A stretch of 64,000 bases of DNA, from positions 454,810-518,809 of IMG/VR virus record IMGVR_UViG_3300014205_000170; one strand, given 5' to 3'. Positions 15,107 to 62,610 of the stretch are shown here, in pieces. Numbering within the stretch: position 1 is the first letter of the stretch; each line of letters begins with the position of its first letter. A program made the position numbers and the translations under genes. The DNA is from a virus. Lineage: Duplodnaviria; Caudoviricetes. The notes below the pieces were generated by a model. It searched no databases. It was not told the origin of the DNA and saw only the letters and a list, made by a program, of their open reading frames with translations.

Positions 15107-15499
15107 TTATGACATCGTTGACAATAGCGTATCTAGTATTTGTCTGTCTATTGCTTCTGAAATTGCTTGTGCTAACATATCGGTGATAAATGTGGGTGCA
15201 TCAAGTTTATATTTTTCACATATAACTATTCTTGTTGCTGAATTTGGGTTTGTAAGTAATGCTGCCAATTCAGATTCTGCATCAATTGAATGATAGGTGG
15301 CCAAATCTTGAGCCATTTCTACATTCCAAGTAGCATTAATTCGTCTTTCTTGAACTTGAACTGGGATGGAGGATATAGTTAAATTTATTTCTTTAACAAA
15401 AGGTGGAAATTTTTCTACTAAAATTTCTCTTATAAAAACATTCTTTCTATAAATTGGCTCAAAAGTATGAAAGTTTCCATATGAAGACCAAGGATTCAT
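15107..15499 (-). CDS. small protein containing a T4 gp23-like major capsid protein fragment
   Basis: RRINATWNVEMAQDLATYHSIDAESELAALL...ISEAIDRQIL resembles the conserved gp23 segment. Confidence 0.65.
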   Translation of the reverse strand: MNPWSSYGNFHTFEPIYRKNVFIREILVEKFPPFVKEINLTISSIPVQVQERRINATWNVEMAQDLATYHSIDAESELAALLTNPNSATRIVICEKYKLDAPTFITDMLAQAISEAIDRQILDTLLSTMS

Positions 15500-16107
15500 T
15501 ACATTTTATTGTGTGGATTTGCTATTCTAAAATTCGTTTTATAAGTTTCTCTTTTTAATAAAAAAAGTTTTGTATTACTATTAGTATCGCCTGCATTTTC
15601 CACCTTTTTAATAGTATCTTTGTTTTCGCGAATTATATCTTTCAGTTTTTCTGTTTTTATTAACCAAATTTCATTGATTTGAGGATAATACGTTACGAAG
15701 AAATCTGCTTTAGTTACAGAAATACCAGATTTTTTCCCTCTTGATTCATATTCGATAGCCATGTTGCCGGTGTCTCTAAGAGAACCAGTCTTTTCATCTT
15801 CAAACAAATGAGCAACATCAGTTTTAATTTCAAAAATATATTCTTTTCCATTTTTTAAAAATTTATAATCATGTGATATATCTTCACATTTAGAAAGAAA
15901 AATATATCCCAGGTTTTCTAAAAATTTTCGAACTATTGATTCTCCTTTTTCTCCCATAGAAAGAGCAGATTCAAAATTATTAATATAACTTCCTTTATTT
16001 AATTTTATATCTTTTTCTAATTCTGTACATAATTCACTGACAGTTTTAGTAGATAAAGTTTCACTAAGCATATTATCTATGTTTGTGAAAAATTCCAAAT
16101 CTTCCAT
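15499..16107 (-). CDS. PD-(D/E)xK nuclease-fold phage protein
   Basis: GEKGE...HDY...FEIKTD...NMAIEYESRGKKSGISVTKADFF. Confidence 0.6.
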   Translation of the reverse strand: MEDLEFFTNIDNMLSETLSTKTVSELCTELEKDIKLNKGSYINNFESALSMGEKGESIVRKFLENLGYIFLSKCEDISHDYKFLKNGKEYIFEIKTDVAHLFEDEKTGSLRDTGNMAIEYESRGKKSGISVTKADFFVTYYPQINEIWLIKTEKLKDIIRENKDTIKKVENAGDTNSNTKLFLLKRETYKTNFRIANPHNKM

Positions 16108-16170
16108 AAAAATTTTTGTTTGTTTGCTAGAACAAATAAAAAGGATTAAATTGATATAAGCAAGTTGAAA

Positions 16171-16491
16171 TTATCTAGAACGACCTTTAGAAAGGTCATC
16201 GAAATATTGATAAAATCCTTTATAGGCAATTACAGACATCATGGTGGGTCCAATTAAACAACCCATAACAGAGAACAGCCCTCCCATAATACTATCGTTA
16301 AAACCATCTTTTATAGCATCTATAACCCAGCCAAAGTTTATGAATTCTAAAGTTGTAATGACCAACGCTACAACAAAGAGTTGTAAATAGCTATTTTGCC
16401 ACTGTAAAGCAAACCAGAATTTAAAAGAACGTTCAAAATTAACATCTGTTCTGAACCATCTTACTTGTTTTTTTGTCTCACTTGTTGGCAT
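16171..16491 (-). CDS. membrane protein
   Basis: two hydrophobic segments. Confidence 0.55.
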   Translation of the reverse strand: MPTSETKKQVRWFRTDVNFERSFKFWFALQWQNSYLQLFVVALVITTLEFINFGWVIDAIKDGFNDSIMGGLFSVMGCLIGPTMMSVIAYKGFYQYFDDLSKGRSR

Positions 16492-16492
16492 A

Positions 16493-16750
16493 TTATTCGT
16501 CTTTTTTTAATAATGGACTTCGAAAGTCTACGAGTTCTTTCATTCGTTTTACTTCTTCTGCTAATAATTTAACATCTTCTAATTGTACAAATTCGCTTTC
16601 TTTAACTATTTCAGAATTAGAATTTTCAGATTGAATACTTAATTCTTTGGTTGAAGTATTGTCAACCTTTATCCACCCTTCCAAAATAGCCATTTTTTCT
16701 ATTTCGGTTTGTAAATATTTTTTCAATTCTTCTTTAGTAAATTTTTGCAT
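16493..16750 (-). CDS. putative virion-associated small protein (KFTKEELKKYLQTEI)
   Basis: 85 aa with upstream TATTTA motif. Confidence 0.55.
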   Translation of the reverse strand: MQKFTKEELKKYLQTEIEKMAILEGWIKVDNTSTKELSIQSENSNSEIVKESEFVQLEDVKLLAEEVKRMKELVDFRSPLLKKDE

Positions 16751-16841
16751 ATTAAATTTTATCTGGTTTTTATAAATATGTATTTTTTTGTTGTTTTATA
16801 GGCATTTTTACTTTAAATTTGTTATTAACTCTAAGAAAATT

Positions 16842-17144
16842 ATGACTGTTATTTTTTTACTTCTTTGTCTTTTTGGTACCAGTTTTTGTTTAACTGGCAT
16901 TTTGATTTGTGCTATTACATTTTTTCGTAAAGTTTCTAATGGAGAGCATCAAAGAAAGGTTGTGGTTTCTCCTAGAGGTTTTCTTTTTCTATTTTTAGGT
17001 ATCGTATCATTCTCATTTACAGATATTTACGACCAAAAATGGGGAGCTGCAATAGTTCATTTTTCAACTTCAATTTTATACTTGTGTATTTATATAATAT
17101 TGAACAAATCTTACAAATTAAAATTAGAAGATGAAAATCGCTAA
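16842..17144 (+). CDS. membrane protein
   Basis: three hydrophobic segments; start moved to MTVIF. Confidence 0.5.
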   Translation: MTVIFLLLCLFGTSFCLTGILICAITFFRKVSNGEHQRKVVVSPRGFLFLFLGIVSFSFTDIYDQKWGAAIVHFSTSILYLCIYIILNKSYKLKLEDENR

Positions 17145-17700
17145 AAGTTATAAAAAACACATTTACTGTCTCGAAGGTAATTGGCAAAAAGATTTAAGAA
17201 AAAAATCTAGCGTAGATTCTTCATTAATGTTTCTTGAAAAAAATTGTGATATCAAACACATACATAAGCACTGTGGAACTAAAGAAACTGTATTTTATTA
17301 TCTTGATATATGGAAGTATAAAAAGTATTCCAATTATTCGATTTGTTATTTAGCATTTCATGGTTTTGAAGGTGAGATAACAGTTGGAAGAGATACTGTT
17401 AGTTTAGAAGAAATGGCTGATTCTCTAGAAGGCGCTTGTAAAGATAAAATAATATTTTTTGGTAGTTGTTTAGTTTTACAAGTAGATAGAGCTAGGATAA
17501 ATAGTTTTTTAGAAAAAACCGGAGCACTTTGTATTTGTGGTTATAAAGTTTCTGTTGATTTCTTATCAAGTTCAGTATTTGAGATGTTAGTGATAAACAT
17601 GTTGCAGAACTATAAAGATATTTCTTGTGTTCAAAGAGACATTAATCTTTATTATAGTACTCTAGCAAAAGAATTGGAATTTAAAATTTATACTTTGTAA
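17131..17700 (+). CDS. DUF6642-like protein (caspase/CHAT-like fold)
   Basis: IYCLEGNW, YLAFHG, IIFFGSC, ICGY..SVDF. Confidence 0.65.
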   Translation: MKIAKSYKKHIYCLEGNWQKDLRKKSSVDSSLMFLEKNCDIKHIHKHCGTKETVFYYLDIWKYKKYSNYSICYLAFHGFEGEITVGRDTVSLEEMADSLEGACKDKIIFFGSCLVLQVDRARINSFLEKTGALCICGYKVSVDFLSSSVFEMLVINMLQNYKDISCVQRDINLYYSTLAKELEFKIYTL

Positions 17701-26550: not shown

Positions 26551-27172
26551 ATATGTGGCTTATAAATTAGGGGGGACCATTCCTTATCCGGTTACGAAAA
26601 TTATCTGGAGAGATAAAGAACAATTGGTTTTTTTTGATGGTCAATTTTACAATATAGATGAATGTATTCTTTGTGCTGATACCGGCTTAACTATAAAAGG
26701 AAAGCGCATTTATGAAGGAGATATTCTTCAATTAGATATCCCAGATTCTTCTTGTTATTGTAAAGGGAAAATTGGTATTGTTTTTTTTCATCGTGGTCAA
26801 TTTTGTTGGGAAGCAGTAGATGGTTGGAGAACCTATTCTTTATATGGAAAAAACTGGAAAAAATTAGGTAATATTGCATGTGACGTTGAACGAATTTTTA
26901 CTCTTGAACAAAGAGGCAATTCATTAATAAGGAAAGTTGCTGAGAAAAAAAAGGGCGCTTATTATGGAGTTCTATTGGAAAAAACTCTAAAACAATTTAA
27001 ACCTACACAAGGAGAAGAAATAAGCGATTTAGAAGTGCAGTCAAAAAAAGCACAAAAAAAATTACTCTTTGAATATGCCAATTATTTAAAGATTAAAAAG
27101 CTAATTGAGGGTAATAAAATTTATCCAGATATTGTGGAAAAAAATCTTACATTTGTAACAGATTCTGAATAA
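26543..27172 (+). CDS. YopX-like protein
   Basis: DTGLTIKGKRIYEGDIL...GIVFF..GQF...LGNI. Confidence 0.65.
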   Translation: MFEYVAYKLGGTIPYPVTKIIWRDKEQLVFFDGQFYNIDECILCADTGLTIKGKRIYEGDILQLDIPDSSCYCKGKIGIVFFHRGQFCWEAVDGWRTYSLYGKNWKKLGNIACDVERIFTLEQRGNSLIRKVAEKKKGAYYGVLLEKTLKQFKPTQGEEISDLEVQSKKAQKKLLFEYANYLKIKKLIEGNKIYPDIVEKNLTFVTDSE

Positions 27173-28602: not shown

Positions 28603-28837
28603 CAAATAAAAAATAATTTAAAATAAAATTAAACGCACTCATCTCATATTAAAACACAGAACCATTGAGTGTGTTGTTCGTCATAATGAAGATTCTGGAA
28701 CTTTAGCCAATCTTGTACAAAAATCATGTGTAGAAATTTTAGAATCAGGATATAGCATTTGTGGAATCACCAAAAGTCACAAAAATAATGATGTAGTTGA
28801 GGTTTACATTATTTATGAAGTTGTAATAAGAAAGGTT

Positions 28838-29044
28838 ATGTTTGAAAAATTTGATGAAGATTCTTTTTATTCTAACGAAGAAATGGAAAATCAAATGAGA
28901 CAATATATTCGAAGAGTAGAAGATTTAAAAAGAAATAGAATACCGGAAGAAAAATTATTTAAAGGAATTTACGCTTCCACTTCCTTATTTTCCATTTCAG
29001 CCTTAAAACAACGGCATCTAAAAAATGTCGATAACCCACTCTAG
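28838..29044 (+). CDS. hypothetical protein
   Basis: 68-aa ORF; 3' end overlaps the convergent gene. Confidence 0.35.
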   Translation: MFEKFDEDSFYSNEEMENQMRQYIRRVEDLKRNRIPEEKLFKGIYASTSLFSISALKQRHLKNVDNPL

Positions 29045-46461: not shown

Positions 46462-46464
46462 AAA

Positions 46465-46830: not shown

Positions 46831-46837
46831 ATCAAAG

Positions 46838-47056
46838 ATGATTGTATTTGAAAATATAGAAATATCAAAGTTTCAATTAAATTATGAGAATATAAAAAAC
46901 CTACCACATTTTATAACACAAATTCACATACATGGTTTTTATAAAGAAGGGGCACTTAAATATTGTAAACATGACTGGTTTTTTATCGGAAGTGTTGGAG
47001 AAGCGATTTGTACAAAGTGTGGTAATTGGGAAAATGAAATAACACATGTAAAATAA
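46838..47056 (+). CDS. small Zn-ribbon protein
   Basis: CKHDW...CTKCG; start moved to MIVFE. Confidence 0.5.
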   Translation: MIVFENIEISKFQLNYENIKNLPHFITQIHIHGFYKEGALKYCKHDWFFIGSVGEAICTKCGNWENEITHVK

Positions 47057-47057
47057 A

Positions 47058-47525
47058 ATGATTTCATTTAATTATAGACATAGTGATGTTCATACTAGAG
47101 AAATTTTAGTTGAAAAAAAATCTAGAGGAAAATTACAAAATTTTCACATTCCACATTCTGCATGGGAAGAGTTTTCTAAAAATATCCCTTTAATAACTTT
47201 TAAAGACTCAATGTATCTTACTGAAAAACTTATCGAATATTTAGCACAAAATATTTTTTCTCCATTATGTGGTTCTGAAAAATATGAAATCTTAAAACAT
47301 GTAGACAACATAAATTTAACTGTGTATCATTCTATAATAATTGATAAATATGTATTCACAATTTCAGAAGGATTAATTTTTAATACATTTTCAACTAGGT
47401 TTAATCCACATGACTTTAGACAAATTATAGATTCACTATGGCATTCTAAAAGTCTTTATAATAGAAATTCTAGTCTTAGCGATTCTGGTCGTAGTCTTAG
47501 AAATTCTAATCTTTTCCAAATATAA
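47058..47525 (+). CDS. paralog family F protein, N-terminal REILVEK motif
   Basis: similar to 58206 (P..W......P..L....F.PL..YVFTI). Confidence 0.6.
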   Translation: MISFNYRHSDVHTREILVEKKSRGKLQNFHIPHSAWEEFSKNIPLITFKDSMYLTEKLIEYLAQNIFSPLCGSEKYEILKHVDNINLTVYHSIIIDKYVFTISEGLIFNTFSTRFNPHDFRQIIDSLWHSKSLYNRNSSLSDSGRSLRNSNLFQI

Positions 47526-47863
47526 TGAACTTTAAAAACATATTTCAAAAATTTCTTTGTACTATTGGAAATCACAAATATCAACTAGACAATTCTGGCT
47601 TAACAGAATTTCCAGTAGACTTTTTTAAATGCAATCATTGTTCAAAGTATTTATTAGTTATTAATGGATTGTTAGCAGTGGGTGTACGTCGTCTTTTATT
47701 ATATAAAAAACGACATGATTTATTAGAGCAAAAACGTTGCGTCATAGTAGAAAAATTTAAACTAAAAATTAAAAAACCAAAACTGCTTATAAATCCGCTA
47801 ACCGGAGAAATCAATCTTAATTATATCATGATTACAGATATGGCAGAAGATGTTTTTATTTAA
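47525..47863 (+). CDS. paralog family D Zn-binding protein, RCVIVEK motif
   Basis: FLCTIGNHKY..DFFKCNHC. Confidence 0.6.
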   Translation: MNFKNIFQKFLCTIGNHKYQLDNSGLTEFPVDFFKCNHCSKYLLVINGLLAVGVRRLLLYKKRHDLLEQKRCVIVEKFKLKIKKPKLLINPLTGEINLNYIMITDMAEDVFI

Positions 47864-47879
47864 TCGCCACATTTTATTG

Positions 47880-48173
47880 ATGAAAAAAATATTTTATAAA
47901 ATACTATGTTTTTTAGGAATTCATTCTTTTGAAAAAACATATAATGCACTTGTACTTATATCAAATGTTGATTTCTTTGAATGTAAACATTGTATAAAGT
48001 CTTATATTACTTTTAGAGGTTTTAACATGAAAAGTGATGAAAACATTTTAGTAAGACAAATAAAACAACGAAAAGCATTATCAGAAACAAGATATGTGCT
48101 TATTGAAAAACAGTTTCACTATATTAAACACTATAAATCATTATCTTTATCAGACCTATTGTTTAACCGCTGA
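47880..48173 (+). CDS. paralog family D Zn-binding protein, RYVLIEK motif
   Basis: ILCFLGIHSF..DFFECKHC. Confidence 0.6.
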   Translation: MKKIFYKILCFLGIHSFEKTYNALVLISNVDFFECKHCIKSYITFRGFNMKSDENILVRQIKQRKALSETRYVLIEKQFHYIKHYKSLSLSDLLFNR

Positions 48174-49679: not shown

Positions 49680-49744
49680 CTAAACGTTTAGTAATAAATA
49701 TGGAATTTTATCCCGAACAAATAAAATTGTCATATCTTTGTAAT

Positions 49745-50017
49745 ATGACAAGTTCAGATGTGGCCTTTAAATTTTTCGAAGTTCAACATGATATATTTCT
49801 CAATGATGGGATTTTACCTAAAAATATTGATATTCTAAGGGTTTTCCGTTTTTTAAAACAATGTAGAGAAGACAATTTAAAATTAATAGGAATTAACTAC
49901 GAAGTCTATGTCGGAGATATACCATATAAACATTTAAAGGTAGGTCAAATATATACAAATGGTTTTGCTGTTGCTGAAAAAGAAACAAGGAAAGTTATAT
50001 TTGAAAAAGTTACTTAA
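49745..50017 (+). CDS. hypothetical protein with RKVIFEK motif
   Basis: ATG 4 nt after TATCTTTG (49733-49740). Confidence 0.55.
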   Translation: MTSSDVAFKFFEVQHDIFLNDGILPKNIDILRVFRFLKQCREDNLKLIGINYEVYVGDIPYKHLKVGQIYTNGFAVAEKETRKVIFEKVT

Positions 50018-50020
50018 AAC

Positions 50021-50353
50021 ATGGAGTGGCTAAAAAAAACATATCGCAGGATTATGTGTTATAAAGAAAGACATGTTTATATTTATATAAGCACTATAGA
50101 TTTAACTGATTGGCCAGGAGTAAATGGAATTATAAAAGGAGATTTTAAAATTAATTTTTTTGAATGTCAACATTGCAAATATGTATGTTTAAAGGGTACA
50201 CAACGTGTTCCACAAAGTTATTTATGGTATGTAGTTAAAATATTTCAAGAAAGAGAAAGTGAATCTAGAAAACGCAAGGTAATTTTTGAAAAATATATTA
50301 AATTATTAATGGAACCCATCACCTCAATGGAACAAATACAACATCTTTTTTAG
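50021..50353 (+). CDS. paralog family D Zn-binding protein, RKVIFEK motif
   Basis: IMCYKERHVY..FFECQHC. Confidence 0.6.
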   Translation: MEWLKKTYRRIMCYKERHVYIYISTIDLTDWPGVNGIIKGDFKINFFECQHCKYVCLKGTQRVPQSYLWYVVKIFQERESESRKRKVIFEKYIKLLMEPITSMEQIQHLF

Positions 50354-50358
50354 TTCTA

Positions 50359-50631
50359 TTAATTAACAGTCATTAATGTGTGATGTTCTAAATTTTCCCA
50401 GCGAATATTCTTTTCTATTAATACTATTTTAGTTGGATGTATTGACCTAATATTAGCCATACGACAACAACTACGCATGTTTTTGTCTATTAATTCAAAA
50501 GATGTTATTACCGAAAAATTTAAAAAATCAGTTATTTCTATTGAGTGAATTAAACCTACGTATTCTTGATTTGTTTTTAAAATCACTAAAACAGTATCAT
50601 AGTCCATTGGTATGTTTTCTCTTACTTTCAT
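50359..50631 (-). CDS. paralog family A protein (tandem array)
   Basis: YDTVLV..YVGLI..KIVLIEK. Confidence 0.7.
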   Translation of the reverse strand: MKVRENIPMDYDTVLVILKTNQEYVGLIHSIEITDFLNFSVITSFELIDKNMRSCCRMANIRSIHPTKIVLIEKNIRWENLEHHTLMTVN

Positions 50632-50900
50632 TATACTAATATTAATTGCAAAGGGTCTTCATTCGGTTCTTTAATTTTTTCTATCAACATAATTCTTGAA
50701 TTATACACATTGTCTATATTATGTAAAGATAAAGTTGGATAAAAACTAGTATGATATATTTCAGCTCTAAAATAGTATCCATTTTTTGAATGTGGTGCTG
50801 GGTCGCTCATTATGTCTCCATCTATAAATAAACCGGTATAGCATTTACCATGCTGTATTACAACAACACTATCATATTTTTTAATACCCCATTTTGGCAT
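50631..50900 (-). CDS. paralog family A protein (tandem array)
   Basis: YDSVVV..YTGLF..RIMLIEK. Confidence 0.7.
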   Translation of the reverse strand: MPKWGIKKYDSVVVIQHGKCYTGLFIDGDIMSDPAPHSKNGYYFRAEIYHTSFYPTLSLHNIDNVYNSRIMLIEKIKEPNEDPLQLILV

Positions 50901-51168
50901 AATTCTTATATGTTATTTTTTCGGTCAATACAATTCTTGACATCCAAACAGTATATACATTTCTAATGTCATTAAAAACTTTTCCTTTATTATTGGAAAT
51001 ACCAACTGCAAAAAATTGAAGATGTATCACATTTTCACTTTCATGAACAACATCAGCATTACCACCTACAAATAAGCCATAAAATATTTCTCCTTTTATA
51101 GTGGTAACTATAATACTATCAAACATTTCCAAATCTGATACTCTTGAAGTTAAATACTCATTTCTCAT
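50881..51168 (-). CDS. paralog family A protein (tandem array)
   Basis: FDSIIV..FYGLF..RIVLTEK. Confidence 0.7.
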   Translation of the reverse strand: MRNEYLTSRVSDLEMFDSIIVTTIKGEIFYGLFVGGNADVVHESENVIHLQFFAVGISNNKGKVFNDIRNVYTVWMSRIVLTEKITYKNYAKMGY

Positions 51169-51182
51169 TAGCGTGTATCAAT

Positions 51183-51530
51183 TTATCTTTCTTCATTATC
51201 AATTAAAGTTTCTATACTACGTCCATCACTTTGTGTCCGTTTTTGTATTTTTTCTAACAAAACAATTTTTGCAGAATAAACAGCCGTTGGATTATATACA
51301 AAAAGAGGACAAATTCCGTTCATTCGAAAAATTTCCACTTGTGTGTACAAACCCCATGTGTTTTCTTCAAATTCAAAGCGATTAGAATATCTAAAGCCAC
51401 CTTTATAACTTTCTTTTGCCTCACCCTGACTATATGTACCCTTAAAAGTTTTACCTTTTTTAGTTTGAATAATTATAGTATCAAAACAAGACAAATTTAG
51501 CTCCCTTAATTTTAATTTATTTTTTCTCAT
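51183..51530 (-). CDS. paralog family A protein (tandem array)
   Basis: FDTIII..FKGTY..KIVLLEK. Confidence 0.7.
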   Translation of the reverse strand: MRKNKLKLRELNLSCFDTIIIQTKKGKTFKGTYSQGEAKESYKGGFRYSNRFEFEENTWGLYTQVEIFRMNGICPLFVYNPTAVYSAKIVLLEKIQKRTQSDGRSIETLIDNEER

Positions 51531-51809
51531 TTATATTGTGTCTAATACAGAATAAAAATCTAATTCTAATTCTGGCCCTTTACATTTTTCAACCAATACA
51601 ATGCTGGCCAAATATACGTTCTTTATTTTATCAATCTTTACTTTGGAATTTATATTTGAATCGTATAACGAAACTTTATAAAAAAATTTATGAGCATCAT
51701 CGTTTTCCACTGACATGACTACGCTTCCTCCTAAAAATAGGCCAGCATAATTTTTGTATTTTGAAATTACAACAATGCTATCATATCTATGTATGCTATC
51801 AACGTTCAT
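51531..51809 (-). CDS. paralog family A protein (tandem array)
   Basis: YDSIVV..YAGLF..SIVLVEK. Confidence 0.7.
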   Translation of the reverse strand: MNVDSIHRYDSIVVISKYKNYAGLFLGGSVVMSVENDDAHKFFYKVSLYDSNINSKVKIDKIKNVYLASIVLVEKCKGPELELDFYSVLDTI

Positions 51810-52056
51810 TTTCTATTTTTTCAACTAATATAATTCGAGCATGTGCAATAAAGTCCGGGCTTTTAATTTTTAAATTTTCAACTCCACACTTTTGAAAAAT
51901 CTCTATTACATTATGTATCACCATTGGAAATTTAATAAAAGAAAACTTATTTACATTCATAGCATAATGCATTTCTTTAAATAAACCACTGTACTTTTTC
52001 CCATTCTTTTCAAGAATAACACTATCAAAATAATGTATATTGTTTTGTCCTTTCAT
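51799..52056 (-). CDS. paralog family A protein (tandem array)
   Basis: FDSVIL..YSGLF..RIILVEK. Confidence 0.7.
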   Translation of the reverse strand: MKGQNNIHYFDSVILEKNGKKYSGLFKEMHYAMNVNKFSFIKFPMVIHNVIEIFQKCGVENLKIKSPDFIAHARIILVEKIENER

Positions 52057-52295
52057 TTATCTCCTTTGATTTTTTCTATTAATAAAATCCTAGAATGATA
52101 TATTGTCGCTATTCTTTGTCTTGTGGTAATGTGTTCTATTTGTCCATTAATATATAATGCGGCTGCATCCAGTTTTTCATTATGTAGAGTTGGAATTTTT
52201 CTTACATAAGAATGTAATAATCCGGAATATATTTTTCCGAGTTCTGTTTCAATAATAACACTATCAAATGTATGGAATGTACGAAAGTCTTTCAT
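52053..52295 (-). CDS. paralog family A protein (tandem array)
   Basis: FDSVII..YSGLL..RILLIEK. Confidence 0.7.
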   Translation of the reverse strand: MKDFRTFHTFDSVIIETELGKIYSGLLHSYVRKIPTLHNEKLDAAALYINGQIEHITTRQRIATIYHSRILLIEKIKGDK

Positions 52296-52556
52296 TTAAA
52301 ATATACTTATGTCATCGTCTGTAACAGTGTTTGTTTTTTCTAACAATACAATTCTTGTGTGAATTATGGTTGCTACCTCATGAATTGTTTGAGCTGTTTT
52401 CATATCTGGATTTATTATAATAATATTCCAACGTTTTATACTATTCCTAAAACCATCTGTGTATCCATCAATGAAAATTCCCTTATAATAATTTTTCGAA
52501 AAAACAGTACAAAGAATTACTGTATCAAACTGTTTAAAATCTTTTCTTTCTATCAT
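52296..52556 (-). CDS. paralog family A protein (tandem array)
   Basis: FDTVIL..YKGIF..RIVLLEK. Confidence 0.7.
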   Translation of the reverse strand: MIERKDFKQFDTVILCTVFSKNYYKGIFIDGYTDGFRNSIKRWNIIIINPDMKTAQTIHEVATIIHTRIVLLEKTNTVTDDDISIF

Positions 52557-52806
52557 AATTTATCTTCTCTGTAAGTAAAATCCTAGAAAAAACAATTTGA
52601 ACACTATCGGCATCCAAGTTAGAAACACATAATATGGGTTCATTGTATTTTTGAAATATTTCTACTTGTACATAATAACCGTTTCGTCTATCCCAATTAA
52701 ACCCCTCAACATTACCATGAAGATATAATCCTTGATATTCTTTATTGTCAACAAACAAAGAAACGCTGTCGTATTTTTTAATATTTATTTCTCTTTTGTG
52801 TATCAT
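52534..52806 (-). CDS. paralog family A protein (tandem array)
   Basis: YDSVSL..YQGLY..RILLTEK. Confidence 0.7.
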   Translation of the reverse strand: MIHKREINIKKYDSVSLFVDNKEYQGLYLHGNVEGFNWDRRNGYYVQVEIFQKYNEPILCVSNLDADSVQIVFSRILLTEKINYDRKKRF

Positions 52807-52810
52807 TCTT

Positions 52811-53056
52811 TTATATTACTCGTGATATATCAATATCAACGTCATTGTACAAATAAGGAGTGTTTTTATGTTTTTCCGTCAATATAATTCTGCCGCCAAA
52901 TACTTTCTCTCCATGATAAACATTATAATGAGGAAGTTTTCCGTTCACATATATGCAACAGAAAAAAACCGCATCATTTTTATAATATTTTAAAAACAGA
53001 CCGGAAAAAGACCTATACGCGTTCTGTACAATAACACTATCATATAATTCATGCAT
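52811..53056 (-). CDS. paralog family A protein (tandem array)
   Basis: YDSVIV..FSGLF..RIILTEK. Confidence 0.7.
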   Translation of the reverse strand: MHELYDSVIVQNAYRSFSGLFLKYYKNDAVFFCCIYVNGKLPHYNVYHGEKVFGGRIILTEKHKNTPYLYNDVDIDISRVI

Positions 53057-53058
53057 TT

Positions 53059-53298
53059 TTATTTTCGTCTACTTAAATTATTAAATTCTAGGTATGATTT
53101 TTCTGTTAAAACTATTCTGTTATAAAACACTTTTTCTTCTTTAAAAACTGGAAAAGCAACACATTGAGTACCTCGATATATTTCAGAACTGAATCTAGTG
53201 GATTTTCCCATTTCGTTTAAATAAATTCCTTGAAATCTGTAATTTTCTTTTTCATTTATAATAAGCACTGTATCTCCAAAACTAAAATTCACATCCAT
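53059..53298 (-). CDS. paralog family A protein (tandem array)
   Basis: GDTVLI..FQGIY..RIVLTEK. Confidence 0.7.
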   Translation of the reverse strand: MDVNFSFGDTVLIINEKENYRFQGIYLNEMGKSTRFSSEIYRGTQCVAFPVFKEEKVFYNRIVLTEKSYLEFNNLSRRK

Positions 53299-53516
53299 AT
53301 CTTTTCAGTTAATACAATTCTTGTTTCATATACTTCTTTTAATTGCCAAAATTCGTTTAGTTTAGAATTTGAATAAATTTGAACCATATAATAACCAGCA
53401 AATGTATTTGGTGGAGCCATTAAATTAATATGCTTACCTCCTCTAGCAAACAATCCTGAAAATATTCCAAATTTGGTTTTTACAGTTACGCTATTGTATG
53501 GCTGAATTTCTTTCAT
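53289..53516 (-). CDS. paralog family A protein (tandem array)
   Basis: YNSVTV..FSGLF..RIVLTEK. Confidence 0.7.
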   Translation of the reverse strand: MKEIQPYNSVTVKTKFGIFSGLFARGGKHINLMAPPNTFAGYYMVQIYSNSKLNEFWQLKEVYETRIVLTEKIWM

Positions 53517-53749
53517 TGCTTAAACTTCTCTGTTAGTATAATTCGAGAGATGTGTACATTTTTAACATTAGGAATGCACATTTCAGGAAACAAAGAATTG
53601 CAATATAAAGTTACTCGATAAAACTCATACCGGTTTTCATATTTCATGTCTCTAATTAAACTACCCATAAGAAACAATCCATGGTACTTACCATCCTTAT
53701 TTTCAACAATGATACTATCGTATTCTTCTATGTCTAATGCAATTCCCAA
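53513..53749 (-). CDS. paralog family A protein (tandem array)
   Basis: YDSIIV..YHGLF..RIILTEK. Confidence 0.7.
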   Translation of the reverse strand: MGIALDIEEYDSIIVENKDGKYHGLFLMGSLIRDMKYENRYEFYRVTLYCNSLFPEMCIPNVKNVHISRIILTEKFKQ

Positions 53750-53755
53750 ATTATT

Positions 53756-54046
53756 TTAATAATTTTGTGAAACTTTTCCGATTTTATTCATCATTGAAAT
53801 GGTTTCTGAATCAATATATTTTTCTAATAGAATTATTCTACAAAAAAGAACCTCATTTGAACAAGCTAAGATATTGAGATAAGAATCAAAATCAGGTTTT
53901 GTTACATTAACATGTAATCGAATCGTATCTTTTGTTATTTTTCCGGATATGACTTTAGCACCATCACCCATGAATAAACCAGTATAAACTTTTCTAGAAA
54001 TAGCAGAAATAACCCTGACACTATCATATTTGTTTATTCGCCCCAT
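53756..54046 (-). CDS. paralog family A protein (first gene of the tandem array)
   Basis: start moved to MGRINK after a minus-strand TATCTTTG; YDSVRV..YTGLF..RIILLEK. Confidence 0.7.
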   Translation of the reverse strand: MGRINKYDSVRVISAISRKVYTGLFMGDGAKVISGKITKDTIRLHVNVTKPDFDSYLNILACSNEVLFCRIILLEKYIDSETISMMNKIGKVSQNY

Positions 54047-54103
54047 TTTGTGTTTCAAAGATAAGAATAAATTTTGTATATTTGCTTTTAAACACATGGA
54101 ATA

Positions 54104-54283
54104 ATGAGCAAAAAAATTGAATTTGACCAATTAGCAGAAAAGCTTAAAAATGAGTTCGGCTCAAGTATTATAGATGAGGGTACAGAAGACAACCCATATG
54201 ACTGGTGGCTTATAGATGTAACTGTAACTGATATAATCGATTTTTTAAAGAAAGAATTAAATGAAACTAAAATTAACGCTTAG
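54104..54283 (+). CDS. 59-aa hypothetical protein (not in the ORF track)
   Basis: MSKKIEFDQLAEKLKNEFG...; TATATTTG upstream at 54077. Confidence 0.5.
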   Translation: MSKKIEFDQLAEKLKNEFGSSIIDEGTEDNPYDWWLIDVTVTDIIDFLKKELNETKINA

Positions 54284-54491
54284 ACAGCTTGAATCTTTAC
54301 TTCAAAGACAAAAAGAAAAGGTCATTGATAGACTCTCTTCGGATAGCTATTTGTATAATACAGAAAGCACAAGCGGCTCTTTAAAGACCTTGCCTATCGA
54401 TAAGGACAAAATGAAACAGATAGGCATGGATGCACAATTTCCAGAAGATTTTCTTACACTTAAAAAGTACATTGAGGAAGATGATAGGTAG
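54261..54491 (+). CDS. hypothetical protein
   Basis: 76-aa ORF. Confidence 0.55.
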   Translation: MKLKLTLRQLESLLQRQKEKVIDRLSSDSYLYNTESTSGSLKTLPIDKDKMKQIGMDAQFPEDFLTLKKYIEEDDR

Positions 54492-54867
54492 AGATTTAAA
54501 AATACGAAGATGGACAAATACTGCCAACGCCAGAACTCGAAAACATAAAGGAGAAATCTTTTTATCTATGAGTTTGATTTTACCGGGTGAGAGTTTTGAA
54601 TCTACGTTCAATATAACGAATTGGCGTATTTGGAATCATATGAACACTAAACCAATTTTTCTTAAAAACAACCAGTTTGTAATAAATTATACAAAAAAAA
54701 GAGGTACAGAATCGCGTTTAATTTTGTGTAATTCTTTAGAAGATGCAAAAAAGAAAGCAGATGAAATCATTATGGCCAAAATATTCAAAGTTTATTTTGA
54801 GCCCATTCCGGAAAGAAAAGTGCTTATAGAAAGAAAAAGAACAAAGAAGAAAAAATCAATAATATGA
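54481..54867 (+). CDS. paralog family B protein, RKVLIER motif
   Basis: LKIRRW..FNITNW..CNSLEDAKKKA..FEPIPERKVLIER. Confidence 0.65.
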   Translation: MIGRDLKIRRWTNTANARTRKHKGEIFLSMSLILPGESFESTFNITNWRIWNHMNTKPIFLKNNQFVINYTKKRGTESRLILCNSLEDAKKKADEIIMAKIFKVYFEPIPERKVLIERKRTKKKKSII

Positions 54868-56465: not shown

Positions 56466-56825
56466 ATGTTTTTATCAAACTTAAAAGATTTAAATTGGCG
56501 AACTTTTAAACATGAAGAAGAAGAATCTGATGTTGTTGAATACTTTGCTATAGTAGAATTCAATCATGAAGAAGTCATTGAATTTATAATTAACAATGTA
56601 AAATCCTATGTTGGTGAAGAATCTATTGTTGATGATAAAGCATTTTACTTATATTATGTTGAAAAACAGACCAATTCAAGAAGAAAGAAATTCGCCAATC
56701 TTGAATCAGCAAAACAAAAAGCACAATCGATATTTTCTGATATGGTCAAAGAATCATTTTTTAAACCAATACCAGCTCGAAAAGTATTATTGGAAAAGAG
56801 ACGAAAAAGAAAGGAAACAATATGA
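56466..56825 (+). CDS. paralog family B protein, RKVLLEK motif
   Basis: LKDLNW..FYLYY..NLESAKQKA..FFKPIPARKVLLEK. Confidence 0.65.
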   Translation: MFLSNLKDLNWRTFKHEEEESDVVEYFAIVEFNHEEVIEFIINNVKSYVGEESIVDDKAFYLYYVEKQTNSRRKKFANLESAKQKAQSIFSDMVKESFFKPIPARKVLLEKRRKRKETI

Positions 56826-57196
56826 TAAAAAACTTAATAAACGTAAAAGCCTTGAATTTAGAAAGAATATCAGTAGTATCCTGGATTTTGTTCTGTGTTC
56901 TTTTGGGTAGTGTTGGATGGGGTCTACATGACCCAAAACTTTACCAACCGTGGGCAGTGTGGGTTACTGGAACATTCCTCTTTGAGACTGTTATGCTCTT
57001 TTTATTGATGATATTAAGTTCTTTTATAACGTCATTCTTTTTTCCAAATTATATAAACATTTTAAAAGAAACTGCCGGGAAAGGATTTGTTAATTATAAA
57101 AATTCAAAAGCCTCTGAAAACTTTTGTACTGTTCTATTGGTTTTGTTTATTATACTAATGAATTCTTTTATGATATATAATCTCTTTATGAAGTAA
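56822..57196 (+). CDS. membrane protein
   Basis: three TM helices. Confidence 0.55.
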   Translation: MIKNLINVKALNLERISVVSWILFCVLLGSVGWGLHDPKLYQPWAVWVTGTFLFETVMLFLLMILSSFITSFFFPNYINILKETAGKGFVNYKNSKASENFCTVLLVLFIILMNSFMIYNLFMK

Positions 57197-57197
57197 A

Positions 57198-57572
57198 ATG
57201 GAAATAAAGAAACTAAGGTGGTGGAATCCAAGACTTAAAAGTCTTAATAAGAACAAACGTAAAATCATAGATAGGACAGCTACGTTTAAAGTCTTTGGAT
57301 ATCAATTTTTTATTACCAATATCAAAAACTATAACAAGGGTAAATCTATTATAGAAAAAAACGTCTTTTATCTTAATTATAAAAAATATTTTAAGGATAA
57401 ACATGGAAATAATTCATCAGGTTATTCTAGAACAATAAAATGTACAAGTTTAAAAGATGCCAAAGAGAAGGCTAATCGACTGTGTGAAAAGTTAATAATA
57501 CAAACCTTTTATAAGCCGGTACCAACCAGGAAGGTTTTTACTGAAAAGAGAAAACAACGTAAATTAAAGTAA
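57198..57572 (+). CDS. paralog family B protein, RKVFTEK motif
   Basis: IKKLRW..FYLNY..CTSLKDAKEKA..FYKPVPTRKVFTEK. Confidence 0.65.
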   Translation: MEIKKLRWWNPRLKSLNKNKRKIIDRTATFKVFGYQFFITNIKNYNKGKSIIEKNVFYLNYKKYFKDKHGNNSSGYSRTIKCTSLKDAKEKANRLCEKLIIQTFYKPVPTRKVFTEKRKQRKLK

Positions 57573-57940
57573 TGTTAATACTTGAAAACTTAAAACCTTT
57601 AAAGTGGAAATCCCTTTATACCAAAAAGGAATTAAGCACTATTTTTAAGGGTAGGGTTTCTTTGATGTCTAGGTGTCCTTTACCTTTACATGATAATTTT
57701 AGATTCTATATTTCGAATTGGAAAGAACTTACACCAAGAACAGCCAATCCTATAATTGATGGTCATTTTTATCTTTCCTCTGATATTATGAATAAAAAAG
57801 GTGATAAAATTAAATTCAATTCCATAGCAGATGCAAAGAAAGGTGCACAAAAACAATTATACAAAATTTTAAAAGCATTGTACTTTATGCCCAATCCAAG
57901 AAGAGTTGTTTTGTTCGAGAAAAGGAAACGTCCTAAATAG
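57572..57940 (+). CDS. paralog family B protein, RVVLFEK motif
   Basis: LKPLKW..FYISNW..SIADAKKGA..FMPNPRRVVLFEK. Confidence 0.65.
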   Translation: MLILENLKPLKWKSLYTKKELSTIFKGRVSLMSRCPLPLHDNFRFYISNWKELTPRTANPIIDGHFYLSSDIMNKKGDKIKFNSIADAKKGAQKQLYKILKALYFMPNPRRVVLFEKRKRPK

Positions 57941-58195
57941 CATAAAAGTCTCTGGTTTTTTCTGTTAATACTATCTTGCTTGGTATTAGTTTTTCTTTGT
58001 GTTTACAAACACAAGTCAATCCAATGTAGGAATTTACCCAATGTAGGAATTTACATATATGGCAGAGGAAAAATGTCTGTTGTAATATTCTGCATATTCC
58101 ATAAAAATCCCAGAATACGGAATAAAATCCTTCTCTATAATTATACTGTCTACTTTTTGTCTAATGCTTACAGTATCTCCAAGAGTAAAATCCAT
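57933..58195 (-). pseudogene. family A paralog frameshifted by a 17-nt tandem duplication
   Basis: CCAATGTAGGAATTTAC x2 at 58021-58054; removing one copy restores an 81-aa ORF, MDFTLGDTV...SKIVLTEKTRDFYAI. Confidence 0.75.
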
Positions 58196-58205
58196 ATACA
58201 AATTT

Positions 58206-58673
58206 ATGAATAAATTTCTTATATTTGTTCTAACAATGCAAGGAGCTTTAAATTTATTCCCAGAGTATGTTTTTACCAAAGGAGTTCTTTTGGAAAAAAG
58301 TGGATATATTGCCTGTGAGAATATATTAGATTTGTTTCCAAATAAATTTTGGAATGATTTGTATGATAAACTACCTAATGAAGGAGTTACTAATGATGTG
58401 GTGAGAATTTTGTCTGAACAGTTTTTTTGTCCTTTATTGAATGAAGCAGAATGGTTCAACACAGGTTTGTTTTATACTCCGACTGATTTCTCTCCTTTTG
58501 TTACACTTCGTGTTGGTAGGTATGTTTTTACAATAACACCATCTTTGTTTGGAGTAAAATCATTTTATGGAAGTGGTTTGGTAAGTCCTTTTAAATATGA
58601 ACTTAATGATATTTGGAACAAGAAGAAACTAGTATACCGTTCAAATTATATACTTAAATTAAATGGAACTTAA
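58206..58673 (+). CDS. paralog family F protein, KGVLLEK motif
   Basis: similar to 47058. Confidence 0.55.
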   Translation: MNKFLIFVLTMQGALNLFPEYVFTKGVLLEKSGYIACENILDLFPNKFWNDLYDKLPNEGVTNDVVRILSEQFFCPLLNEAEWFNTGLFYTPTDFSPFVTLRVGRYVFTITPSLFGVKSFYGSGLVSPFKYELNDIWNKKKLVYRSNYILKLNGT

Positions 58674-59109
58674 AAAACTTAACTGGTTTGTAAATAAGGA
58701 TTATTCTTATAAAAACATGAAACAATGGTTTGCCAGATTTCATTTCTTTAATGTTATATTTTATATTGATAATTGGTCAGGTAGCTCTGAAAGGCCAATC
58801 ATAAAAAAAAATGTTTACTTTGTTTATTTTTATCGTAACGATAAATTCTCATATTCACGTAGAATCCAATGTCAAAGCCTAGAAGAAGCCAAACAGAAAT
58901 CTATTGAGATGTGTTTTAAAATGATAAGGGATACTTTTTTTGAGCCTCCGGTTGAACGAAAGATACTTTTTGAAAAGTGTAAACGTAAAGCTTCTAAACG
59001 AAAAACAATAAGCGAAAATGATATTCGTTTATTACAGAATCTTAGATTGATAGCGCCGGCTGAACCGATAAATGATAATGTATTGTGGGGATATACAACA
59101 TTAAAATAA
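58663..59109 (+). CDS. paralog family B protein, RKILFEK motif
   Basis: LKKLNW..FYIDNW..CQSLEEAKQKS..FFEPPVERKILFEK. Confidence 0.65.
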   Translation: MELKKLNWFVNKDYSYKNMKQWFARFHFFNVIFYIDNWSGSSERPIIKKNVYFVYFYRNDKFSYSRRIQCQSLEEAKQKSIEMCFKMIRDTFFEPPVERKILFEKCKRKASKRKTISENDIRLLQNLRLIAPAEPINDNVLWGYTTLK

Positions 59110-59117
59110 TTATAAAC

Positions 59118-59282
59118 ATGAATATTTCAGACTTAAAACAGATAATAATGCAAGAAGTACTAGAGACGCAAGGAAAGTGTGTTAGAGTAGTTTTAACAGA
59201 GAAATACAGTAAAGCTAAAAGAAATAAAGAGATTGCTGATAAAATTTTTAATGAGGTTTTAAAGAGAATGAATTATTTGTAA
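59118..59282 (+). CDS. small protein, RVVLTEKY motif
   Basis: paralog of the next ORF. Confidence 0.55.
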   Translation: MNISDLKQIIMQEVLETQGKCVRVVLTEKYSKAKRNKEIADKIFNEVLKRMNYL

Positions 59283-59479
59283 TGAAGATTGACGTATTAA
59301 ATAGTAGAAGCAGATTGTCTCCGGGCGCATTTGATGGGTTTGTTTTCAATAATTTTGAAGAGGTTTTTTCTAGGTACGTGTTGGTTGAAAAATACACTGA
59401 AAAACAAAGACAGTTTGATGTGGACAATGCGATATTTTATCAAAAATTACTTAAGATGTTAAATCCACACAATTTTTAG
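59282..59479 (+). CDS. small protein, RYVLVEKY motif
   Basis: paralog of the previous ORF. Confidence 0.55.
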   Translation: MKIDVLNSRSRLSPGAFDGFVFNNFEEVFSRYVLVEKYTEKQRQFDVDNAIFYQKLLKMLNPHNF

Positions 59480-59787
59480 ACGGCTTTTGTTTTTTCTGTT
59501 AAAACTATTCTTAAAGTATGTATTGGTTTGTCTCGATTGAAAAAAGAAAGTGACCACTTATTATCAGTACGTTTAAAAAAAACTAGTCCGCTTTTGAATT
59601 TATTCTCTTTTGAGTTACGAATTTTCACTAAAAAGCCTCTTACTTTAATTGAGTCTACTGATTTTTTATATTCACATCCTCCATGTTTCTTTTTACCGGT
59701 AAGAGGATTTTTTTTCAAGTCACATGTAACTTCAATTGTATCGAAATGATGAAAAGTGGAATCTTGGTATAATTGAAAATCGTTCAT
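59476..59787 (-). CDS. paralog family A protein, RIVLTEK motif
   Basis: FDTIEV..VRGFL..RIVLTEK; TACCTTTG upstream. Confidence 0.6.
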   Translation of the reverse strand: MNDFQLYQDSTFHHFDTIEVTCDLKKNPLTGKKKHGGCEYKKSVDSIKVRGFLVKIRNSKENKFKSGLVFFKRTDNKWSLSFFNRDKPIHTLRIVLTEKTKAV

Positions 59788-60005
59788 TGGTCTATTCAAA
59801 GGTAGTCAAAATTTTGGGCAAAAAAATTTCTGGGAAAAATTTTTGGTAGGTCGAATTTTGTATATCATATAGAAAAGGGTACACCCTCTTTTTTGCCTTA
59901 AAACCTTGGTGCTACTTTTTTGGAAAAAAAATGGGCCAAAAAATGCGCGTTGGGTCCATCCACAGGGGGGGTAGGGTCATTTTAGGGCTAATTTTTGATA
60001 CGATA

Positions 60006-61630: not shown

Positions 61631-61662
61631 GTACTATACGGAATTTAAAACATTGAAGTTAC
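61631..61662 (-). promoter_or_regulatory. ECF-sigma-like promoter GTAAC-N17-CGTATAGTAC
   Basis: exact motif; divergent from the copy at 61696. Confidence 0.8.
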
Positions 61663-61695
61663 AGTAAGGATATATCAAATTTAAGTTAAGTAGGT

Positions 61696-61727
61696 GTAAC
61701 ATACTAATAGAATTTTACGTATAGTAC
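61696..61727 (+). promoter_or_regulatory. ECF-sigma-like promoter GTAAC-N17-CGTATAGTAC
   Basis: exact motif. Confidence 0.8.
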
Positions 61728-61752
61728 TGTATAACCAATAAACAAAGAAACC

Positions 61753-62295
61753 ATGCAAGAGAACGTTAAAAAATTAGTAGAAATGTTAAGTACAATGAAA
61801 ATTGGCTTTATCGCTGTTAATCGTTATGAGAACATTGAAGGTGAAAAAAGCAAGCGTCGTATTAACATCGGTTTCAGCTATGAAAACCTAAAAAAGTCTG
61901 ACCTTAAAACATTAACTGAGGGGGTTGAGTTTATCCCTTCGGACAAGTACACACAAGCCGATTGGAACGTAGCTATTGCTGAATTGAAGCAGTCATTGAT
62001 TGAACCAAGTAAAACACGTTCTGAGGCTCAAAGTAATGCGTATTTGAGTTTAACAGAGAACAATGCTGTTCGCTACAATTACGAAACACAAGAACTTTAC
62101 ATTATGGGTATTGAACTTGATGGAAGCAAATTTGTAACCGAGGAAGGAACAAAGAAAACTGTAAAATCCGCACCAAAGACCATTGCAAAGAACGTTATTA
62201 GACGTGAGTATTTAAAATCAGGTCTTATCCGTAACTTTAAGGTAAAGAATATCGGAGAGGTGAAATTGAAAGGTGAGGAAATTGAGTTAGGGTAA
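61753..62295 (+). CDS. hypothetical phage protein
   Basis: 180-aa ORF with codon usage suggesting high expression (CGT, GGT, AAC). Confidence 0.7.
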   Translation: MQENVKKLVEMLSTMKIGFIAVNRYENIEGEKSKRRINIGFSYENLKKSDLKTLTEGVEFIPSDKYTQADWNVAIAELKQSLIEPSKTRSEAQSNAYLSLTENNAVRYNYETQELYIMGIELDGSKFVTEEGTKKTVKSAPKTIAKNVIRREYLKSGLIRNFKVKNIGEVKLKGEEIELG

Positions 62296-62332
62296 AATCC
62301 TAATATATCGGCAACTAAGAGGGGAGGTGTGT

Positions 62333-62364
62333 GTAACATTCTCCCTTTTTTATTCGTATAGTAC
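62333..62364 (+). promoter_or_regulatory. ECF-sigma-like promoter overlapping a terminator hairpin
   Basis: exact motif; the -35 box lies inside a GGGAG...CTCCC-T-run hairpin. Confidence 0.8.
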
Positions 62365-62367
62365 TGT

Positions 62368-62610
62368 ATGAGCGATGAGAAGCACATAAATAAAAAGAAG
62401 GTTATCATTGAGAAAATTAATGAGAAGCGTTTGGCTTATGAGATTGAGAAGTTGAAACGTTTGAGGGTGCGTAAAACTAAAAGGAAAATAAAACGTGCTG
62501 AGAACAAAAAATACAATTTTAGTAATGCAACATGGTATGAGGATGGTAAATGTATGCAAAATTGTGAAATGGGAGGTACTTGTGGATTCCCATGTAATGG
62601 AGATTGTTAA
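62368..62610 (+). CDS. small basic protein, KKVIIEK motif, Cys-rich C-terminus
   Basis: CEMGGTCGFPCNGDC. Confidence 0.6.
   Translation: MSDEKHINKKKVIIEKINEKRLAYEIEKLKRLRVRKTKRKIKRAENKKYNFSNATWYEDGKCMQNCEMGGTCGFPCNGDC

What the first reader, a model, noticed from the sequence alone, without database searches (positions are those of the whole stretch)
15107..62610. One short linear motif, R-x-[VI]-[LIFV]-x-E-K, grafted onto more than 35 proteins from unrelated families
Seen: the motif or a close variant occurs, usually near a terminus, in all 17 family A genes, 5 family B, 3 family C (36680-38334), 3 family D, 2 family E and 2 family F genes. It is also in the 59118/59282 pair and in singletons at 31701 (RIVFLEK), 33675, 36312 (RNVILEK), 44783 (RKVFSEK), 49745, 62368 and 26543. 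The capsid-fragment protein has it twice and the terminase-fragment protein has RKVIIEK. The codons differ between copies, so selection is on the peptide and this is not a DNA repeat. I did not see it in the housekeeping-type enzymes (ThyA, Trx, CCA enzyme). Inference: a phage-wide addressing tag, for example beta-strand addition to a shared hub, a signal for import into a phage compartment, or a degron for the phage AAA+/M41 protease, letting many small effectors plug into one machine.
Basis: partly seen in the sequence, partly recalled or inferred. Interest (0 to 1): 0.85.

Follow-up and report, generated by a model that had tools for sequence, protein, structure and literature searches.

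The report
Shared docking peptide on megaphage proteins
About a quarter of the proteins of this giant bacterial virus, including dead fragments of its own capsid, tail and packaging proteins and two anti-immunity protein homologues, carry the same seven-residue peptide, which behaves like a docking handle for one still unidentified partner and has no published description that I could find.

Summary
Confirmed, and larger than reported. The window lies in a complete 519-kb phage with a probable Bacteroidota host. (T)-R-x-V-L-[IFTLV]-E-K occurs in 194 of about 796 genes (shuffles: 4.5), spread over about 160 unrelated sequence groups. Codon use matches the genome, so selection is on the peptide. 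Orthologues at about 43% identity keep it at the same site, with E and K invariant. It marks one clade; sister phages lack the enrichment. It was appended (full-length Tad3 homologue), inserted (Acb3 homologue, capsid fragments) or converted from a native strand (terminase paralogue). Every clearly detected degenerate copy of a virion or packaging protein carries it (7 of 181 tagged, 0 of 420 untagged). Carriers avoid early and late promoters and include membrane proteins, which argues against capsid loading. Best reading: a cytoplasmic beta-strand handle that ties immune decoys and binders to one machine, possibly the phage ClpC-ClpP. The scan noted this motif elsewhere in this genome, and different tags in other megaphages.

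The parts
15107..15499 (-). Major-capsid-protein fragment (matches residues 275-323 of the real MCP) with two tags, at 15410-15430 and 15212-15232; the second interrupts the capsid-derived helix
17681..18361 (-). ATPase-only terminase paralogue; Walker B Asp replaced by Ser, no nuclease domain; tag at 17705-17725 aligned to a native terminase strand; this gene and 13 homologues all keep the tag
26963..26983 (+). Weak R-less variant in gene 26543-27172 (6.2 bits; may be chance)
28829..28849 (+). Tag (17 bits) in an open frame that lacks a standard start upstream
31695..32279 (+). Singleton carrier, tag 32223-32243
33675..33908 (+). Singleton with R-less variant at 33696-33716
36312..36677 (+). 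Singleton carrier, N-terminal tag 36342-36362
36680..38334 (+). Three adjacent genes with C-terminal tags at 37214-37234, 37686-37706 and an R-less variant at 38296-38316
43770..44276 (+). Carrier, C-terminal tag 44241-44261
44287..44529 (-). Outlying family A member, tag 44311-44331
44783..45190 (-). Carrier, tag 44789-44809, one residue before the stop
45618..48173 (+). Five carriers, tags at 45975, 46739, 47097, 47735, 48090
49700..50353 (+). Two carriers, tags at 49988 and 50273
50359..54130 (-). Family A array: 14 small SH3/Sm-like beta-barrel genes, each with the tag at the end of the barrel (the copy at 51585 lacks R)
54430..54867 (+). Family B member with the rare E-R variant at 54814-54834
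56466..57940 (+). Three family B carriers, tags at 56778, 57528, 57902 (the gene 56822-57196 between them is untagged)
57933..58195 (-). Family A copy split by a short duplication and frameshift near 58020-58050; tag at 57957-57977
58164..59109 (+). Two carriers, tags at 58278 and 58957 (family B)
59085..59479 (+). Two 65-aa carriers, tags at 59184 and 59372
59476..59799 (-). Family A member, tag 59491-59511
62368..62610 (+). Carrier, tag 62395-62415; one of the few carriers behind the phage early promoter (62331)

Best explanation
The seven residues are a docking strand read by one highly conserved partner in the cytoplasm during middle infection. Shown: peptide-level selection, one clade, many unrelated bodies, any position, E and K fixed. 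Inferred (about 0.8): one reader binds exactly these residues, probably by adding them to a beta-sheet edge, so the tag works in tails, loops and edge strands alike. Inferred (about 0.5): the variable bodies are binders and baits for host immune proteins (dead copies of capsid, terminase, prohead protease and tail tube, probable portal and sheath pieces, and Tad3 and Acb3 homologues), and the tag ties what they catch to one machine. Inferred (about 0.3): that machine is the phage's N-domain-less ClpC with ClpP, reached through an adaptor such as the UVR-motif protein at genome 307388-308188. The set would then be a library of substrate receptors that destroys immune sensors and clears the potentially poisonous fragments before assembly.
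For: 194 of 796 genes against 4.5 expected, in 161 BLAST components. In 26 of 27 doubly tagged orthologue pairs the tag is at the same aligned site; identity R 0.88, V 0.65, E 1.0, K 1.0 against 0.43 elsewhere. No E-to-D and one K-to-R among more than 220 consensus sites. The tag can be the last seven residues or follow Met directly, so seven residues suffice. It is appended after a full-length Tad3 match (PDB 9b7d_B, E 2e-25, residues 12-203 of 216) and lies between the two Acb3 profile segments. Degenerate virion-protein copies at E<1e-5: 7 of 181 tagged, 0 of 420 untagged, Fisher p 2e-4, post hoc. Terminase ATPase domain, portal and capsid are sensor triggers (PMC13601566); phage proteases activate CBASS (PMC12991175 title); Tad3 binds ThsB (PMC13728456). 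The phage encodes ClpP and a ClpC with no N-domain but a UVR motif. The UVR protein is 76% identical within the tagged clade and 26% to an untagged relative, and keeps a distinct acidic segment in tagged lineages.
Against: ClpC and ClpP also occur in untagged relatives. The match between the UVR protein and the tag is a single evolutionary event, and one tagged lineage is as diverged (39%) as untagged ones. Only about 12 of 194 bodies are recognisable, so the immune link rests on a small minority. Terminase ATPase paralogues can activate rather than block sensors (T4 vs.8, PMC13601566). Nothing here shows expression or degradation.
Confidence: 0.35

Rival explanations
1. Capsid-loading signal like the T4 CTS: the tag binds the prohead core or protease, and the carriers are injected with the DNA as anti-defence cargo.
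For: The R-x-hydrophobic-L-x-E spacing equals the second half of the helix motif on this phage's late cargo-type proteins. A conserved late core protein (genome 446846) has a tag-like segment even in untagged relatives. T4 internal proteins are diverse defence inhibitors sharing only a CTS (PMC3012670).
Against: The position is free, often internal. The residue after E is always K, never K in 47 helix-type sites. A multi-pass membrane carrier keeps the tag in its orthologue. Late-promoter motif upstream of 5% of carriers against 47% of cargo-helix genes. A separate cargo signal already exists. One chance 14-bit match per proteome is expected.
Confidence: 0.17
2. Acceptor site for a covalent modification or conjugation (acylation, isopeptide or cross-link at the fixed Lys or Glu) that marks or anchors the carriers.
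For: K and E tolerate no conservative change, as in modification consensus sites (my knowledge). The phage has an R2K-clade ATP-grasp ligase inside a carrier block.
Against: That ligase was not found in the tagged relatives held and is present in untagged G003. No other protein-conjugating enzyme surfaced among 137 scanned non-carriers (not the whole proteome).
Confidence: 0.13
3. Plain degron or timer: the tag only removes middle proteins, especially dominant-negative fragments of structural proteins, before assembly; no substrate is recruited.
For: All detected structural fragments are tagged; carriers sit mainly in middle-type operons; ClpC and ClpP are encoded.
Against: Internal and barrel-end positions are poor pore-engagement sites (my knowledge). 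It does not explain why untagged middle genes need no tag, or why full-length Tad3 gained one.
Confidence: 0.13
4. Mimic of the inter-subunit strand of host GroEL (about residues 36-42) that docks carriers on the chaperonin.
For: One Bacteroidota GroEL scores 14.2 bits at that strand; that genome also has the closest ClpC relative. The strand's interface role is from my knowledge.
Against: Another Bacteroidota GroEL scores -2.6, with D and R where the tag fixes E and K. About ten such matches are expected per bacterial proteome (scaled). The site is occupied in assembled rings. The phage has no chaperonin.
Confidence: 0.06
5. No separate reader: tags pair with each other as antiparallel strands (R with E, V with L) and gather carriers into dimers or aggregates that sequester host proteins.
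For: The pattern is self-complementary on paper, and no clear clade-specific hub gene emerged.
Against: It does not explain the fixed K; barrel-end tags have at most one free edge; most carriers have a single copy.
Confidence: 0.06
6. Artefact of composition, a DNA repeat, or the last strand of one shared fold.
For: In family A and about 30 barrel-like genes the tag sits at the barrel's end.
Against: Enrichment of 40- to 80-fold over shuffles; genome-like codons; bodies include Tad3, Acb3, terminase, capsid, tube and membrane proteins; no enrichment in sister phages.
Confidence: 0.01

Closest known systems
Phage T4 capsid targeting sequence (CTS) of internal proteins (PMC3012670)
   Same: One short shared peptide on otherwise diverse, fast-evolving phage proteins, some of them anti-defence.
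   Different: The CTS is N-terminal and removed (my knowledge) and serves a handful of genes. This tag is position-free, ends in a fixed Lys, is on about 200 genes including membrane proteins, and no packaging is shown.
SPO1 Gp53, a phage adaptor-like protein for B. subtilis ClpCP (PMC6873191); also MecA, McsA and the SspB XB tail (my knowledge)
   Same: A phage protein that redirects an AAA+ protease; short docking peptides on adaptors.
   Different: One protein and the host protease. Here about 200 candidate receptors share one motif, the phage has its own ClpC and ClpP, and the link is only inferred.
Tad3 (PDB 9b7d) and Acb3 (Pfam PF25187) anti-defence binders
   Same: True homologues are among the carriers.
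   Different: In these homologues the tag lies outside the region matched by the solved Tad3 chain and between the matched Acb3 profile segments, so it is an addition.
T4 vs.8, a terminase-ATPase paralogue (PMC13601566)
   Same: A stand-alone copy of the terminase ATPase domain that a sensor can recognise.
   Different: vs.8 keeps its Walker motifs and activates Avs2. The copy here lost the Walker B Asp and gained the tag.
Eukaryotic short-motif systems: viral F-box adaptors, PP1 RVxF docking, Plasmodium PEXEL (from memory, not tested)
   Same: A variable binding body plus a constant short handle on hundreds of proteins.
   Different: Eukaryotic readers; no homology; analogy only.

Membership tests
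T4-type capsid targeting sequence | Signal at the N-terminus | tested here: not met
   37 of 194 within 15 aa of the N-terminus, 71 of the C-terminus, the rest internal
T4-type capsid targeting sequence | Removed by the prohead protease after [LI]-x-E | tested here: inconclusive
   The tag contains L-x-E, but the next residue is always K and never K in 47 cargo-helix sites
T4-type capsid targeting sequence | Carriers are soluble, packageable proteins | tested here: inconclusive
   Most are soluble, but 5 of 181 have predicted membrane helices (against 38 of 420 untagged), and a multi-pass one keeps the tag in its orthologue
T4-type capsid targeting sequence | Carriers present in virions | not testable with these tools
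   Needs virion proteomics
Clp adaptor or degron system | A Clp unfoldase and peptidase are available | tested here: met
   Phage ClpP E 1.8e-62; ClpC without N-domain, with UVR motif
Clp adaptor or degron system | Machine restricted to, or co-evolving with, the tag | tested here: inconclusive
   ClpC and ClpP also in untagged relatives; the UVR protein follows the clade once only
Clp adaptor or degron system | Tag-dependent binding and degradation | not testable with these tools
   Needs biochemistry
Degron for the window's AAA+/M41 protease | Protease present in tagged relatives | tested here: inconclusive
   Absent at the syntenic site in G012 and no orthologue in G011/G012, which are incomplete
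GroEL inter-subunit strand mimic | Tag matches the host GroEL strand consistently | tested here: inconclusive
   14.2 bits in one Bacteroidota GroEL, -2.6 in another; true host unknown
DNA repeat or mobile element footprint | Nucleotide-level conservation | tested here: not met
   Codon identity 0.569 against 0.565; flanks at most 0.21 bit
Single expanded protein family | Homologous bodies | tested here: not met
   161 components, 135 singletons; recognisable bodies have different folds
Tad3 family (one carrier, genome 268856) | Full-length homology to solved Tad3 | tested here: met
   Pfam E 2.7e-27; 9b7d_B E 2e-25 over residues 12-203

The most novel reading that the evidence does not exclude
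A phage clade has built a modular targeted-degradation system in bacteria. About 200 substrate receptors (immune-protein binders and dead decoys of its own virion proteins) share one seven-residue handle that plugs into a single adaptor and the phage's own ClpC-ClpP, in the manner of F-box proteins and cullin ligases but without ubiquitin.
Probability: 0.25. Interest if true: 0.95.

Novelty: categorically new. Interest (0 to 1): 0.8.

Why it matters
Most genes of giant phages are orphans. A shared handle puts a quarter of this proteome into one functional class and makes it testable with a single peptide pull-down. If the bodies are baits and binders, the roughly 180 unknown carriers per genome are a ready list of candidate anti-defence proteins and a map of what host immunity senses. 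The pairing of tag and dead virion-protein fragments suggests a way to use decoys without triggering the sensor or poisoning assembly. A position-independent seven-residue handle with its reader could become a tool for targeting or degrading proteins in bacteria. Unchecked notes of this scan report different tags in other megaphages, so the strategy may have arisen repeatedly.

Tried and rejected
Complex prediction of the UVR protein's N-terminal part (residues 1-194) with a 35-aa tag peptide gave no verdict (score 0.01, mark 0.32). It is no evidence either way, and the single job is spent. Fold searches of the UVR protein found no clear match, and its N-domain was barely tested. The family A model gave only weak Sm/Hfq/SH3-like matches, none at E<=0.001 (Atlas TM 0.55-0.61), and AlphaFold left the tag as coil after the last strand. 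No phage GroEL or GroES. Listing genes present in tagged and absent in untagged relatives gave many enzymes and no obvious hub; DUF6642 beside the terminase paralogue was considered and has adjacency and distribution only. De novo motif search in untagged G001 found no alternative tag. The motif is rare in three Bacteroidota genomes (1-4 matches, like the control). Ten literature searches found no description of the motif or of such a system; subscription journals are mostly not covered. The family A homologue search used a profile that includes the tag, so the tags in all its true hits are partly circular. Gene calls are my own codon-score caller, so counts are approximate.
Full report
Context. 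The window is the last 64 kb of a 518,809-bp virus record with direct terminal repeats and 29% GC. It has a gp23-type capsid protein whose nearest isolates are only 30-44% identical. The host is probably Bacteroidota: the closest bacterial relative of the phage ClpC is from that phylum, and the sigma-factor N-termini and the TAnnTTTG promoter boxes upstream of several carriers look Bacteroidota-like (my knowledge).

In the window the strict pattern is in 28 of 108 genes (shuffles 0.2), and about 45 genes carry it when variants and missed frames are included. In the genome, 194 of 796 genes score at least 10 bits on a motif matrix against 4.5 in shuffles; a relaxed pattern gives 209 against 10.8. 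The consensus is T(31%)-R(79)-x-V(78)-L(67)-[I,F,T,L,V]-E-K. E and K are fixed by the matrix, but independent counts find no E-to-D or E-to-Q and one K-to-R beside 224 full matches. Codons match genome use and the flanks carry no DNA signal. The carriers fall into 161 BLAST components, 135 of them singletons, with a median length of 124 aa.

It is a clade trait under selection. Relatives with 89-90% capsid identity, and a second large genome (G011 34 of 164 genes, G012 59 of 384), are tagged. Relatives at 82% or less are not (4 of 247, 6 of 462, 2 of 279, 0 of 144). Around the portal gene, tags persist in five loci down to 54% terminase identity and vanish in three sister loci. In orthologue pairs the tag stays at the same site in 26 of 27 doubly tagged cases, with R, E and K far more conserved than the bodies (43%). 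Carriers evolve faster than other genes (median 42% against 56%). Two orthologues in untagged G001 show tag-like ends, and a late core protein has a tag-like segment in all relatives held, so a few ancestral copies may predate the expansion; one such match per proteome is also expected by chance.

How the tag is placed. It can be the last seven residues or follow the start Met, so seven residues are enough. It arose in three ways. It was appended after a complete Tad3 fold. It was inserted between the two Acb3 profile segments and inside capsid-derived segments, as in window gene 15107. It was converted in place from a native strand, as in the terminase paralogue 17681, where it aligns with the strand after the ATPase's last helix and is kept in all 14 sequences. 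In family A, a small SH3/Sm-like barrel (weak matches only), it follows or overlaps the last strand. All this fits a peptide bound in extended form at a sheet edge, which is inference.

What the bodies are. Most have no Pfam or PHROG match. Those that do are telling: Tad3 and Acb3 homologues; three different capsid fragments; a terminase ATPase copy without the Walker B Asp; a prohead-protease piece with a decayed active-site region; two clear tail-tube copies; and weaker portal and sheath pieces. Profiles of 97 core genes found such virion-protein copies in 7 of 181 tagged genes and none of 420 untagged small genes (p 2e-4, post hoc). Tagged capsid fragments recur next to the portal gene in other clade members. 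At the site of window gene 15107, G012 has a related tagged mini-gene whose end resembles a portal segment instead (weak, 19 aa). Terminase ATPase, portal and capsid are documented sensor triggers (PMC13601566), and Tad3 binds ThsB (PMC13728456).

When and where. The early-promoter region has 1 carrier in 86 genes. By operon leader, early operons have 2 of 72, late-motif operons 14 of 124, and host-type or unclassed operons about 30%. Carriers are tightly packed, with a median gap of -1. Five have predicted membrane helices, and a multi-pass one keeps its N-terminal tag in G011. This points to a cytoplasmic reader in middle infection rather than head loading, although T4 internal proteins are also made early (my knowledge), so timing alone does not exclude loading.

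It is not identified. The window's AAA+/M41 protease is missing at the syntenic site of G012. The phage has ClpP, DnaJ and a ClpC that lacks the N-domain but keeps a UVR motif; untagged relatives have them too. The best phage candidate is a 266-aa protein at genome 307388 with a C-terminal UVR motif, named McsA-like by one source. It is 76% identical within the clade and 26% to G001, with an acidic segment kept in tagged lineages only. That is one evolutionary event and therefore weak. Host GroEL carries a matching strand in one of two complete Bacteroidota sequences checked.

Verdict. Shown: a real, selected, clade-specific, position-free peptide on a quarter of a phage proteome, linked to dead copies of virion proteins and to anti-defence homologues. 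Inferred: one reader (0.8), a counter-defence purpose (0.5), Clp proteolysis as the outcome (0.3). It works like a capsid targeting sequence or an adaptor tail in being a constant handle on variable bodies. It fails the position test of the T4 CTS and cannot be filed with any degron family. I found no publication on it. The scan's unchecked notes report this motif in other windows of this genome and unrelated tags in other megaphages, one with fragments of essential proteins; I did not test those. Interest 0.8.

Noticed in passing
genome 307388-308188 (L017:7374-8171, minus): Conserved protein with an unmatched N-domain and a C-terminal UVR motif beside two sigma factors; candidate adaptor for the phage's N-domain-less ClpC.
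   Followed up: partly
genome 170427-175938 (L009-L010): Phage DnaJ, ClpP and a ClpC lacking its N-domain, conserved in relatives; ClpP diverges unusually fast (50% within the clade against 78% for ClpC).
   Followed up: partly
window 55207, 55602, 38927, 40727, 19082: Second signal on late genes: amphipathic I-R-x-x-I-R-x-x-L-x-E helix or R-M-x-x-L-A-G-I, with a TATTTA upstream motif; probable head-cargo and protease signal, essentially separate from the tag.
   Followed up: partly
window 61694, 62331, 63025, 63654 and genome 0-38 kb: About 50 copies of an early promoter core (GTGTAAC, about 17 nt, CGTATAGTAC), confined to the genome ends.
   Followed up: partly
genome 432124-432968 (L024:599-1443): Operon of tagged mini-genes: capsid N-terminal piece, sheath N-terminal piece and a probable sheath C-terminal piece; conserved in G012.
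   Followed up: partly
genome 446846-448423 (L024:15321-16898): Late core protein of unknown fold with a conserved block containing a tag-like segment in tagged and untagged relatives.
   Followed up: partly
window 17131-17700: DUF6642 protein with His-Gly and Ser-Cys motifs suggesting a caspase-like fold (from memory), next to the terminase paralogue, 72% identical in G012 and absent from untagged relatives held.
   Followed up: partly
window 29330-31351: Soluble-looking AAA+ plus M41 peptidase fusion, absent at the syntenic site of G012.
   Followed up: partly
window 57933-58195: Family A gene split by a short tandem duplication; real frameshift or assembly error not resolved.
   Followed up: partly
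genome 82898-452000: Many aminoacyl-tRNA synthetase-like genes, peptide deformylase, RtcB-like ligase, five PcfJ-like proteins, PARG, bestrophin, an R2K ATP-grasp ligase and M3, M28 and PrsW peptidases.
   Followed up: no
window 48156-49679: 507-aa gene, probably the source of the Glyco_hydro_64 (beta-1,3-glucanase) hit in alignment A5; the member was not pinned down.
   Followed up: no
L310, L314, L315: Terminase, portal and a glycosyltransferase of relatives carry inteins; the query genome's copies are of normal length.
   Followed up: no
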